From a virus (taxonomy: Duplodnaviria > Heunggongvirae > Uroviricota > Caudoviricetes), in the IMG/VR virus record IMGVR_UViG_2778261418_000026: 5,312 bases of DNA. One strand, given 5' to 3'. Under the pieces are notes generated by a model, which did not search any database, had not been told where the DNA came from, and saw only the letters and a program-made list of their open reading frames with translations. This document shows, piece after piece, positions 3,677-5,149 of this stretch (its first letter is position 1; the number at the start of each line of letters is the position of its first letter). The translations under genes and the position numbers were made by a program.

Positions 3677-5149
3677 TTACCATAGTCCCATACGTACACG
3701 TAAAGTACCGTTAGAGTCATAGATCTGAATGATGTTATTACTAATTACCATTCGACCAGTACCACCAGTACCGTTAATGTAGATAGTACCTGCTTTGTTA
3801 ATCTGCCAGCCAGTGCTATTTGCTACATAGTTATTACTCTGTATAGTATTTGCAATCTTGGCAGTAGTGATACTAGCATCAACGATTTTAGCGGTGTTTA
3901 CTGCTAGGTCGGCAATCTTAGCGTTAGTAACGGCTAGGTCGGCAATATAGGCAGTACCAATACTGGCTTGTTGAATCATCGCGGTTTTTAGATAGGTAGT
4001 AGTACCGATAACCGTAAATGGTGCGGCCCCACCAACCGTAGGTGTACTTGCACCAGAAATAACAAACTTATCTGCGGCAAAGTAGATAGCACTAGTGTTA
4101 GTAGTACCACCAGCGATTAGTTTAAAACCAGCTACAGTACCGTTAGCATTGACACTAAGACTATATGAGGCGTTCACTTCTGCTTTAGTAGCTTTAGCTG
4201 ACATCTCTGTATTAACGCTTGCAAAACCAGCATCTGTACTAGCTTTCAATTGGTTGATTGCCGTAGTTTGTGCCGTATCATTATCTGCTACTGTCTGTGT
4301 TAGAGTTGTAATATTTGCTTTGTTACCATTTGCCGTTGCTTCGACTATATTGATCTTCTGACTTAATGCAATGTTATTGTCCGTTATTTGCGTCTGTAAC
4401 GTCGTCTCACTGGCTTTAATCGCTGCGTTAGTCTTTGTCTCGGATTGAGTGATCTTCGTCGCTGTATTGGCTGCTGCGTCGGCTACGGCCTTATCTAGTG
4501 TATCAGTCAAACGACCATCTAGATCTAGAATACTATTGATTTCGTCTGCATCAGCTTGTGTAAACTGATATTTGGAGTTGATAGTAATATTCACTTCTGG
4601 GCTGTACTGGATATTATCCATACCAAACTTATCAAATAAACCAATCTTAACGAAGTAATCGCCATCAGTGATATTTGGTACACTGTCAAACTCTGGCTTA
4701 TTACTAATATATGATTTAGTAGAAATAGCAGTACGCATAACGATATGTGCACCTGCATAATCTGGTTCGGTTGATTCAGTCCAACTAACGAATAAGTTAC
4801 CAAAACCACCGCCAACCTGTACGCCCTGTACTAATCCGCATTGTAAGTTTTCCGGTGTAATCTTAACTTCTGGTGAGAACGTGCCAGACATCCACCCCTG
4901 AGCAATAATCCCAATAGTTGGTTTACGTAGGCTGTATTTGTTCAAATCAAAGGTAAAGTTAAACTCATTACTACTTGAAATAAATGTATCTTTCAGTGTA
5001 GTACCATCATAGATATTAATCGTATAATGTTTAAAATACTGTTGGAATGTTTGACCATTAACCTTAATATTCTGTTGGTTATCCCAAATAATATTAAAGT
5101 CAGTCTCATTTGTAATTAATAGACCAGAAGTAGCATTTTTCAATTTCAC
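3677..5149 (-). CDS. Tail fiber / host-specificity (central fiber, J-like) protein, C-terminal portion; 490 aa from GTG 5149, with the frame open upstream to 5236
   Basis: Large ORF with a beta-rich Ig/FN3-like N-terminal region, a long Ala/Thr/Asn/Gln-rich helical segment, decapeptide repeats ([10 protein letters not shown] / [10 protein letters not shown] / [10 protein letters not shown]), and a short C-terminal domain. This composition and architecture is typical of phage fibers. The first canonical start is a GTG with no convincing SD, and the same frame stays open 29 codons further upstream, so the true 5' end is uncertain. Confidence 0.85.
3845..3970 (-). repeat. Degenerate tandem 30-bp repeats (about 4 units) inside the tail-fiber gene, encoding a 10-residue repeat
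   Basis: Plus strand shows GCAAT at 3851, 3911 and 3941, and GCTAGGTCGGCAAT at 3902-3915 and 3932-3945, with 30-bp periodicity. Matches the protein repeats xAKI[AV]D[LA][AS][VI]x. Confidence 0.6.

What the first reader, a model, noticed from the sequence alone, without database searches (positions are those of the whole stretch)
3677..3844. Very short C-terminal domain after the fiber repeats
Only about 55 residues ([52 protein letters not shown]) follow the repeat region. That is small for an autonomous receptor-binding domain in a central fiber. It may be a docking knob for a separate adhesin (by analogy with T5, where the separate protein pb5 binds the fiber tip, and with T2-type gp38 adhesins), or a minimal glycan-binding tip.
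Basis: inference. Interest (0 to 1): 0.4.

Follow-up and report, generated by a model that had tools for sequence, protein, structure and literature searches.

The report
Fiber tip that docks separate adhesins
The last 55 residues of this prophage's central tail fiber are the conserved end of the fiber shaft, and they most likely hold two small receptor-binding proteins encoded just downstream; this arrangement was described in other phages and pyocins in 2021-2026, so this is a new example of a known design.

Summary
Window 3677-3844 (-) encodes the last 55 residues plus stop of a lambda-J-like central fiber, directly after about 3.5 ten-residue repeats.

It is not a separate knob. Pfam Phage_Tail_Tip covers its first 35 residues, and the protein ends about where lambda J's shaft ends and its fused receptor-binding domain begins.

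The same tip ends T1 gp33, Pseudomonas phage DEV gp56 and SU10's short fiber.

- In 40 related loci the complete tip is always at the C-terminus.
- In 36 of them homologs of the window's 98-aa and 215-aa proteins lie close by.
- The tip is the most conserved part of the fiber (72% mean pairwise identity, against 39-51% further upstream).
- Sister prophages keep the tip but carry a different 84+221-aa cassette, or a fused distal domain and no cassette.

The docking reading is therefore supported by comparison, though binding was not tested. The glycan-tip alternative is disfavoured.

In this window IS2 interrupts the fiber gene. This is a new member of a known kind; interest is modest.

The parts
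3677..3844 (-). Fiber tip: the last 55 codons plus stop of the central fiber. By homology it is the terminal narrow beta-prism layer of the central straight fiber, and it is the proposed docking surface.
   Evidence: Translation. PDB sequence hits. Always C-terminal in 40 loci. Mean pairwise identity 0.72, the highest of any fiber segment.
3845..3949 (-). About 3.5 ten-residue repeats ([10 protein letters not shown] type), residues 401-435 of the 490-aa ORF. By homology this is the intertwined beta-helix that precedes the tip.
   Evidence: Sequence. Mean pairwise identity 0.64. F7 pyocin structure description in PMC12874032.
3740..3904 (-). Match to Pfam PF09327 Phage_Tail_Tip (profile positions 81-136 of 139). 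It spans the last repeats and the first 35 tip residues.
   Evidence: 63.8 bits, cut-off 22. In lambda J the same profile covers 845-972, just before the fused receptor-binding domain at 1001-1132.
3677..5236 (-). Remnant of the J-like central fiber gene: 519 codons open up to the IS2 junction, corresponding to about residues 582-1100 of the intact 1100-aa protein.
   Evidence: PHROG tail-fiber and central-fiber-J families.
5238..5312 (.). End of an IS2 copy that interrupts the fiber gene.
   Evidence: Megablast hits at 95-100% identity, annotated IS2 in Shigella phage SfX and found in thousands of E. coli places. The related genomes H11 and H12 match only window 1-5236.
3436..3621 (-). 61-aa acidic ORF between the fiber and the 98-aa gene. 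It is not a conserved part of the module.
   Evidence: No Pfam, PHROG or NCBIfam hit. Found only in L001, L002 and L007. Other loci have no gap here or vestigial tip fragments.
3140..3436 (-). 98-aa one-domain cap/adaptor protein (phrog_7961), the counterpart of DEV gp55 and of the PyoF11 class.
   Evidence: PHROG cross-hits link families 7961, 2427 and 4047. AF2 model is all-beta, pLDDT 89.5. Foldseek hits to the Pam1 receptor-binding domain and R2 pyocin fiber. Lies close to the fiber end in 36 of 40 loci.
2483..3130 (-). 215-aa two-domain protein (phrog_4524; Pfam PF28254; named DUF8377 by NCBI). It is the predicted receptor-binding protein and belongs to the YncD-associated family.

Best explanation
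The 55 residues are the last layer of the trimeric central straight fiber of a lambda-J-like tail tip protein. They are not a receptor-binding domain. The fiber lacks the fused distal domain that lambda J carries. Instead the tip serves as a conserved docking platform for two proteins encoded downstream: a one-domain adaptor (98 aa) and a two-domain receptor-binding protein (215 aa).

Each of these three beta domains opens with a similar hairpin (h-Q-x-aromatic-N/D-x-x-G-x-L-x-h-D). I infer that one copy of each protein caps the trimer, with one hairpin per fiber subunit. That would turn a three-fold tip into a single asymmetric adhesin.

By family membership the likely receptor is an outer-membrane protein of the YncD type. 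By analogy with F-type pyocins, receptor binding at the cap would then be relayed up the fiber to open the tail tip.

What is shown: the tip's homology, its position at the C-terminus, its conservation, its linkage to the cassette, cassette swapping, and the fold and family of the two proteins. What is inferred: physical docking, the 3:1:1 stoichiometry, and the receptor. In this window the system is probably dead, because IS2 splits the fiber gene.
For: - PF09327 covers the tip's first 35 residues. In lambda J that profile ends at residue 972 and the fused receptor-binding domain PF12421 starts at 1001.
- The same tip ends T1 gp33, DEV gp56 and SU10 gp16.
- In 40 of 40 loci with a full tip match, the tip ends the protein (0-5 residues follow). 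p98 and p215 homologs lie within 0-240 nt downstream in 34 loci and nearby on the opposite strand in 2.
- Loci that match only the repeats continue for 73-1167 more residues.
- Tip mean pairwise identity is 0.72, against 0.39-0.51 for segments upstream of the repeats.
- The hairpins of p98 and p215 score 0.68-0.71, against 0.36-0.53 for the rest of those proteins.
- In the same prophage lineage, L019, L024 and L025 keep the tip (72-74% identity) with an unrelated 84+221/230-aa cassette. L041 and L042 have a fused domain of about 150 aa and no cassette.
- DEV gp55 and gp54 are 99 and 223 aa. gp54 is the LptD-binding protein by genetics, and an AF3 model places one gp55 and one gp54 on the gp56 trimer.
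- PyoF11 and PyoF12 are essential, found in particles, and have one and two Ig-like domains.
- p215 is 38% identical to the locus protein of YncD-targeting IsaakIselin.
- The p98 model matches the Pam1 and R2-pyocin receptor-binding domains, the same folds reported for PyoF11/12.
- PHROG cross-hits link one-, two- and three-domain cap proteins.
- A 2026 preprint flags the GpJ C-terminal tip as a feature tied to compatibility with the locus-encoded receptor-binding protein.
Against:
- p215 shows no sequence similarity to DEV gp54 (E 1.7), and Foldseek found nothing for it.
- p98 against gp55 is weak by BLAST (E 0.011).
- Support for the third hairpin is weak (hhalign E 0.011-0.019). A short HMM of N-terminal hairpins found no internal copy in p215.
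- Published complexes of the homologous systems are AlphaFold models fitted to low-resolution density, not resolved interfaces.
- A 61-aa ORF of unknown role sits between the fiber and p98.
- The SU10 authors called this region of their short fiber the receptor-binding domain.
Confidence: 0.75

Rival explanations
1. The tip itself is the receptor-binding element, a minimal glycan- or protein-binding knob, and the downstream proteins do something else.
For: The SU10 authors labelled the C-terminal part of the homologous short fiber a receptor-binding domain resembling the T4 long-tail-fiber tip. The tip is the most distal part of the fiber polypeptide.
Against: - The tip is the most conserved fiber segment (0.72).
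- It is 28-52% identical over the last 110 residues in phages of Pectobacterium, Vibrio, Pseudomonas and Escherichia. Specificity determinants normally vary most.
- It corresponds to shaft, not receptor-binding domain, in lambda J.
- SU10 also has a 343-aa cap-type gene starting 2 nt after its fiber gene.
Confidence: 0.06
2. The 98-aa and 215-aa proteins are assembly chaperones or non-virion accessory proteins. The tip is only a folding and trimerisation cap, and host recognition rests on the separate large side fiber of this prophage.
For: - The prophage encodes a 1075-1233-aa side fiber with an S74 chaperone domain.
- Detection of DEV gp55 in virions was uncertain.
- PHROGs label related families as membrane or moron proteins.
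Against: - DEV gp54 and PyoF11/12 were detected in particles, and gp54 suppressor mutations map receptor contact.
- The p215 family tracks YncD specificity in Drexlerviridae.
- The p215 model resembles a solved receptor-bound binding protein.
- Cassette swapping behind a constant tip is typical of specificity modules.
Confidence: 0.1
3. The element is a decayed remnant with no current function, and the short ending reflects truncation of a once longer fiber.
For: IS2 interrupts the fiber gene in this window. In NZ_CM151386 the gene is annotated as two overlapping CDSs.
Against: - The C-terminal end is identical in length in 40 loci, including free phages such as HK639 and IsaakIselin, so the short end is the native design.
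- p98 and p215 are intact here.
- Decay concerns only the 5' part of the gene in this strain.
Confidence: 0.05

Closest known systems
Pseudomonas phage DEV receptor-binding fiber gp56-gp55-gp54 (PDB 9ZE4; PMC12892993)
   Same: gp56 ends in the same tip (IQSDNY...GW...[31 protein letters not shown], E 1.1e-10). It is followed by co-oriented genes of 99 and 223 aa, against 98 and 215 aa here. gp55 and p98 are linked through phrog_2427 and phrog_7961. gp54 is the receptor-binding protein and gp55 the adaptor.
   Different: DEV is a podovirus, and gp56 is a 429-aa lateral short fiber rather than the end of a J-type hub protein. gp54 (phrog_3370) shows no sequence similarity to p215 (phrog_4524). 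The receptor is LptD rather than the YncD predicted here.
F-type pyocin central fiber with PyoF11/PyoF12 (F7: PMC12874032; F2: PMC13455828, PDB 25VF)
   Same: A J-like central fiber with a long alanine/threonine-rich helical shaft (E 3.6e-11 over residues 839-1022) that lacks a fused receptor-binding domain. Two downstream proteins have one and two Ig-like domains. The p98 model hits the same Pam1 and R-pyocin folds reported for PyoF11/12.
   Different: By alignment the F2 tip appears about 20 residues shorter. The pyocin sequences of PyoF11/12 were not available for direct comparison. Pyocins also hang side fibers on the shaft. No pyocin function is implied here.
Receptor-binding-protein loci next to gpJ in Drexlerviridae, Dhillonvirus and Queuovirinae (BASEL collection, PMC8594841; preprint 10.64898/2026.04.02.716166), YncD allele of IsaakIselin
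   Same: p215 and p98 are 38% and 34% identical to bas10_0025 and bas10_0026. The J protein ends in the same tip (62% identity). The family is associated with YncD targeting.
   Different: In IsaakIselin the cassette is on the opposite strand, convergent with J. Here it is co-oriented, in a temperate prophage of about 30 kb with a different tail module. Receptor use is untested.
Oekolampad (Bas18) receptor-binding protein bound to LptDE (PDB 9RPT; 10.1101/2025.07.07.663478)
   Different: 11% identity, a different PHROG family and a different receptor.
Lambda J, with fused C-terminal receptor-binding domain
   Same: Same shaft family (PF09327). Lambda ...ITSGGNPPAFSLTPDGKL...CTINGTLRAEKIVG parallels [20 protein letters not shown]...[14 protein letters not shown] by eye.
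   Different: Lambda continues into PF12421 (1001-1132), which binds LamB. The window fiber stops at about that boundary. BLAST finds no significant similarity.
T5 pb4-pb5 and T2-type gp37-gp38
   Same: The concept is shared: a single-copy adhesin on the end of a trimeric fiber.
   Different: No homology was found. No T5 or T-even chains appear among the PDB hits, and there is no Pfam hit.

Membership tests
Central straight fiber of J-like tail tip proteins (Pfam PF09327 Phage_Tail_Tip) | Profile match above the curated cut-off | tested here: met
   63.8 bits against 22, residues 416-470. In the intact homolog the match is at 1026-1080 of 1100.
Central straight fiber of J-like tail tip proteins (Pfam PF09327 Phage_Tail_Tip) | Lies at the C-terminal end of a large tail-tip protein with FN3 domains, encoded after the tape measure and minor tail genes | tested here: met
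   L002 has an 1100-aa protein with fn3 at 506-586, preceded by DUF6950, DUF2163 and a 732-aa protein at the tape-measure position. It also hits PHROG central tail fiber J.
Central straight fiber of J-like tail tip proteins (Pfam PF09327 Phage_Tail_Tip) | Trimeric beta-helix/beta-prism architecture | not testable with these tools
   Only monomer prediction was offered. The architecture is inferred from the F7 pyocin post-ejection structure.
Tip-docked cap systems (DEV gp56-55-54, pyocin PyoF10-11-12, gpJ plus receptor-binding-protein locus) | Fiber ends in the conserved tip with no fused distal domain | tested here: met
   40 of 40 loci have 0-5 residues after the tip. PF12421 is absent.
Tip-docked cap systems (DEV gp56-55-54, pyocin PyoF10-11-12, gpJ plus receptor-binding-protein locus) | Small one-domain plus two-domain proteins encoded next to the fiber end | tested here: met
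   98 and 215 aa here; 99 and 223 in DEV; 97 and about 224 in L092; 84 and 221 in L019. AF2 models show one and two beta domains.
Tip-docked cap systems (DEV gp56-55-54, pyocin PyoF10-11-12, gpJ plus receptor-binding-protein locus) | Small protein homologous to the gp55-type adaptor | tested here: met
   - p98 hits phrog_7961 (5.5e-24) and phrog_2427 (1.2e-6).
- gp55 hits phrog_4047, phrog_2427 and phrog_7961 (7.7e-4).
- The L092 97-aa protein hits phrog_4047 (1e-16) and phrog_7961 (4.8e-8).
- Pairwise BLAST alone is weak (E 0.011).
Tip-docked cap systems (DEV gp56-55-54, pyocin PyoF10-11-12, gpJ plus receptor-binding-protein locus) | Larger protein related to a demonstrated receptor-binding protein | tested here: met
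Tip-docked cap systems (DEV gp56-55-54, pyocin PyoF10-11-12, gpJ plus receptor-binding-protein locus) | Physical attachment of the two proteins to the fiber tip, and their presence in virions | not testable with these tools
   This needs multimer prediction, cryo-EM or mass spectrometry.
Tip-docked cap systems (DEV gp56-55-54, pyocin PyoF10-11-12, gpJ plus receptor-binding-protein locus) | Direct sequence homology to PyoF11/PyoF12 of P. aeruginosa pyocins | not tested
   The pyocin sequences could not be fetched; the genome scan returned only L092 and L093. L092 shows a fiber, 97-aa, about 224-aa, 305-aa gene order that I read as resembling the pyocin order.
Lambda-type fused receptor-binding domain (PF12421 Ig_GpJ_C) | C-terminal domain of about 130 aa after the shaft | tested here: not met
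   There is no PF12421 hit in the window fiber or in L002; it is present in lambda J at 1001-1132.
T5 pb5 / T-even gp38 adhesins | Sequence or profile similarity of the downstream proteins to pb5 or gp38 | tested here: not met
   No Pfam hits. No T5 or T-even chains appear among the PDB sequence hits.

The most novel reading that the evidence does not exclude
Cap modules behind this tip always contain exactly three homologous beta domains, each opening with the same hairpin. The domains are spread over two genes (1+2: this window, L019, DEV, CF53a, L092) or fused in one gene (3: T1-like L043, SU10, My1, pVa-8).

The hairpin resembles the fiber's own last hairpin: [15 protein letters not shown] against LQCWNASGVLVVDLG, QCYNSAGKLTI and YLDVRNSAGTL. 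This suggests that the cap docks by adding one pseudo-threefold layer that imitates the next turn of the fiber prism. That would be a general way to convert a trimeric fiber into a single-copy adhesin.

Cassettes appear to move together with the tip-coding end of the fiber gene, leaving vestigial tip fragments as recombination scars.
Probability: 0.45. Interest if true: 0.5.

Novelty: new member of a known kind. Interest (0 to 1): 0.3.

Why it matters
It assigns a likely role to two hypothetical prophage proteins, one of them DUF8377/PF28254. It predicts an outer-membrane receptor of the YncD type for a family of Enterobacteriaceae prophages. It also shows that the tip-plus-cassette design known from lytic T1-like phages, a Pseudomonas podovirus and F-type pyocins occurs in a temperate E. 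coli prophage lineage, with natural cassette swaps behind a constant tip.

A constant docking tip with exchangeable caps is what one would want for retargeting phages or tailocins. The three-hairpin rule, if confirmed, would say which parts must be kept when caps are exchanged.

Tried and rejected
- **BLASTP of the fiber end against lambda J:** nothing significant. The relation rests on PF09327 and on alignment by eye.
- **p215 against DEV gp54 by BLAST:** no similarity.
- **NCBIfam:** no hits for the fiber, p61, p98 or p215.
- **Short HMM of N-terminal hairpins to detect internal copies:** it exceeded the 99th percentile of shuffles only in DEV gp54, L043 and My1, not in p215.
- **hhalign for the p215 internal hairpin:** weak (E 0.011-0.019).
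- **Fold-switch sequence pattern of He et al. in the fiber shaft:** four hits alternating in direction, but not above shuffles (213 of 2000).
- **Genome scan to fetch the P. aeruginosa pyocin locus:** it returned only a P. pseudonitroreducens and an Enterobacter locus.
- **Alignment built from fetched loci (A2):** A3 and A4 were rebuilt from database hits.
- **T5 pb4/pb5 and gp38 as homologs:** rejected for lack of any hit.

Full report
**What is in the window**

The window is the right end of an E. coli prophage inserted in yegD.
- Two complete genomes match window 1-5236 at 97.9% and 94.8% identity.
- The minus-strand ORF 3677-5149 is the 3' part of a J-like central tail fiber gene. It hits PHROG tail-fiber and central-fiber-J families and Pfam PF09327.
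- Window 5238-5312 is the end of an IS2 copy.
- The fiber frame stays open for 519 codons up to that junction, where an in-frame TAA lies.
- The intact gene in NZ_CM135810 encodes 1100 aa.

**The observation**

Window 3677-3844 (-) gives [55 protein letters not shown] plus stop. It follows directly after about 3.5 ten-residue repeats.

**What the segment is**

- PF09327 (Phage_Tail_Tip) covers residues 416-470 of 490, which is the last repeats plus the first 35 tip residues.
- In lambda J the same profile spans 845-972, and the fused receptor-binding domain PF12421 occupies 1001-1132.
- Gu et al. define the lambda central straight fiber as residues 808-998 (PMC13455828).
- By eye, lambda's ...ITSGGNPPAFSLTPDGKL...CTINGTLRAEKIVG parallels the window tip, although BLAST finds nothing significant.

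The window fiber therefore ends about where lambda's shaft ends. What is short is not a domain; a fused distal domain is absent.

In the F7 pyocin post-ejection structure, the equivalent C-terminal region of the central fiber is a beta-prism base, a short intertwined beta-helix and a final narrower beta-prism (PMC12874032).

**Relatives with solved or modelled structures**

A 97-aa query ending in the tip hits the following:
- T1 gp33 (9L9P, E 2.7e-12)
- DEV gp56 (9ZE4, 1.1e-10)
- SU10 short fiber gp16 (7Z4B, 9.4e-8)
- a J-like gp24 (23GD)
- the F2 pyocin fiber (25VF)

In T1, DEV and SU10 the motif lies at the extreme C-terminus. None of these entries resolves the tip experimentally: the T1 C-terminus was not seen, and the DEV and SU10 parts are AlphaFold models fitted to low-resolution maps.

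I scanned IMG/VR with the last 140 residues, which gave 80 loci, and added reference phages.
- Wherever the complete 55-residue tip is matched (40 loci), it ends the protein, with 0-5 residues after it.
- Homologs of the 98-aa and 215-aa proteins lie 0-240 nt downstream in 34 of these loci. In 2 more (IsaakIselin and L040) they lie nearby on the opposite strand.
- Loci that match only the repeats continue for another 73-1167 residues, meaning they carry fused distal domains.
- Among 25 loci the tip is the most conserved part of the last 490 residues. Mean pairwise identity is 0.72, against 0.64 for the repeats and 0.39-0.51 further upstream.

Three states occur within one prophage lineage, which shares the downstream 88-aa membrane/coiled-coil protein and the lysozyme:
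- tip plus p98/p215 (this window);
- tip (72-74% identical) plus an unrelated 84-aa and 221/230-aa pair (L019, L024, L025);
- only the first 24 or so tip residues, followed by a fused domain of about 150 aa and no cassette (L041, L042).

This is the pattern expected of a constant socket with exchangeable or fusable adhesins.

**The two downstream proteins**

*p98.* It belongs to phrog_7961. PHROG cross-hits link it through phrog_2427 to phrog_4047, the family of DEV gp55. Its AF2 model is an all-beta domain (pLDDT 89.5). The best Foldseek matches are the cyanophage Pam1 tailspike receptor-binding domain and the R2 pyocin fiber (probability 0.95-0.99, E 0.04-0.2). He et al. report these same folds for PyoF11/PyoF12.

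*p215.* It belongs to phrog_4524 and Pfam PF28254, named DUF8377 by NCBI. About 160 homologs exist, and all those carrying a source name are from Enterobacterales.
- It is 38% identical over full length to bas10_0025 of phage IsaakIselin and 46% to HK639 gp25.
- IsaakIselin targets YncD. Its receptor-binding-protein locus next to gpJ is the YncD allele (PMC8594841). A 2026 preprint defines the YncD family by more than 30% identity at full coverage.
- The AF2 model has two beta domains (pLDDT 89.3, pTM 0.84).
- Foldseek found nothing for it.

**Published function of homologous modules**

- *DEV.* gp56, gp55 and gp54 are co-transcribed and all essential. gp54 is a virion protein whose mutations suppress an lptD receptor mutation. 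[quoted passage not shown]
- *F-type pyocins.* PyoF11 and PyoF12 are essential, found in particles, and predicted to bind the central-fiber C-terminus. They have one and two Ig-like domains.

**A pattern I noticed**

Every protein encoded right after such a tip starts M-[A/S/T]-x-G-h-x-h-...-G. The motif recurs so that each module appears to have three copies.
- *1+2 arrangement:* window p98 MAQGLQCWNASGVLVVD; p215 MSGFQCYNSAGKLTID and SGYLDVRNSAGTLIW. The same arrangement appears in DEV, CF53a, L019 and L092.
- *3-in-one arrangement:* L043 (354 aa), SU10 (343 aa), My1 (314 aa) and pVa-8 (364 aa), all in phrog_1265.

Supporting evidence:
- In the AF2 models each domain opens with a lower-confidence hairpin: p98 residues 6-17, and p215 residues 5-16 and 105-116.
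- These hairpins are more conserved than the domain bodies (0.68-0.71 against 0.36-0.53).
- PHROG cross-hits link one-, two- and three-domain proteins.
- Profile comparison supports the match between the p98 and p215 N-terminal hairpins (E 2e-5). Support for the internal p215 hairpin is weak (E 0.011-0.019).
- The fiber's own last hairpin aligns best with exactly these hairpins (E 0.014, 0.0039 and 0.15).

I read this as one hairpin per fiber subunit, extending the prism by a pseudo-threefold layer. This is inference.

**Verdict**

The docking reading is supported by comparative evidence. The glycan-tip reading is disfavoured. The arrangement has been described in 2021-2026 literature, so this is a new member of a known kind.

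Noticed in passing
window 5238-5312 and the junction at about 5237: An IS2 end interrupts the fiber gene. The ORF's GTG start at 5149 is an artefact, and the frame is open for 519 codons up to the junction. Relatives without the insertion encode an 1100-aa protein.
   Followed up: yes
L013:5524-5595, L019:5542-5622, L021:5500-5610, L023:5505-5612, L027:5494-5568: Vestigial second copies of the tip end (for example ...VITDKHIEIYDSEGKLRVRMNKD*) lie 80-200 nt after the fiber stop, before the cassette (tblastn E 4e-5 to 2e-8). They are probably scars of cassette exchange by recombination within the tip-coding sequence.
   Followed up: partly
window 3436-3621 (-): A 61-aa acidic ORF lies between the fiber and the 98-aa gene. 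It has no family hit and occurs only in the closest relatives (L001, L002, L007). Other loci have no gap or tip remnants there. Its function is unknown.
   Followed up: partly
window 3680-3766 against 3385-3429, 3082-3120 and 2785-2820 (protein level): The fiber's last hairpin [15 protein letters not shown] resembles the opening hairpins of p98 and of both p215 domains. In hhalign each best local hit lands on a hairpin, but the E-values are only 0.004-0.15.
   Followed up: partly
L087:3781-4812 (SU10), L088:3294-4238 (My1), L090:3225-4319 (pVa-8), L043:5227-6291: Single proteins of 314-364 aa in phrog_1265, which PHROGs annotates as 'membrane protein / moron', lie directly after tip-ended fibers. 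By eye they carry three hairpin motifs. The annotation is probably wrong, and the SU10 structure paper does not discuss this gene.
   Followed up: partly
window 4120-4560 (-), fiber residues about 196-345: An alanine/threonine-rich segment is homologous to the helical shaft of the F2 pyocin fiber (E 3.6e-11). [quoted passage not shown] The published SxSxxMxxLxS pattern occurs four times in alternating direction here, but not above shuffles.
   Followed up: partly
L041:3846-5840 and L042: In the same prophage lineage the fiber has a fused distal domain of about 150 aa (similar to the J-like gp24 of PDB 23GD after ...GW.I.KGG) and no cassette. The fiber is split by a frameshift in this assembly.
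   Followed up: partly
window 2149-2415 (-) and 1668-2120 (+): An 88-aa protein with an N-terminal membrane helix and a coiled coil is conserved after the cassette, whichever cassette is present. It faces a T4-type lysozyme gene, so it is likely a lysis component rather than part of the adhesin module.
   Followed up: no
window 1190-1678 (-): A SegE-like GIY-YIG homing-endonuclease gene (Pfam PF19835, E 2.4e-16) sits next to the lysis genes.
   Followed up: no
L091:3521-5404 (Pseudomonas phage CF53a): The gp54-like two-domain gene is split by a mobile-element gene into 64-aa and 162-aa fragments. This is another cap module hit by an insertion.
   Followed up: no
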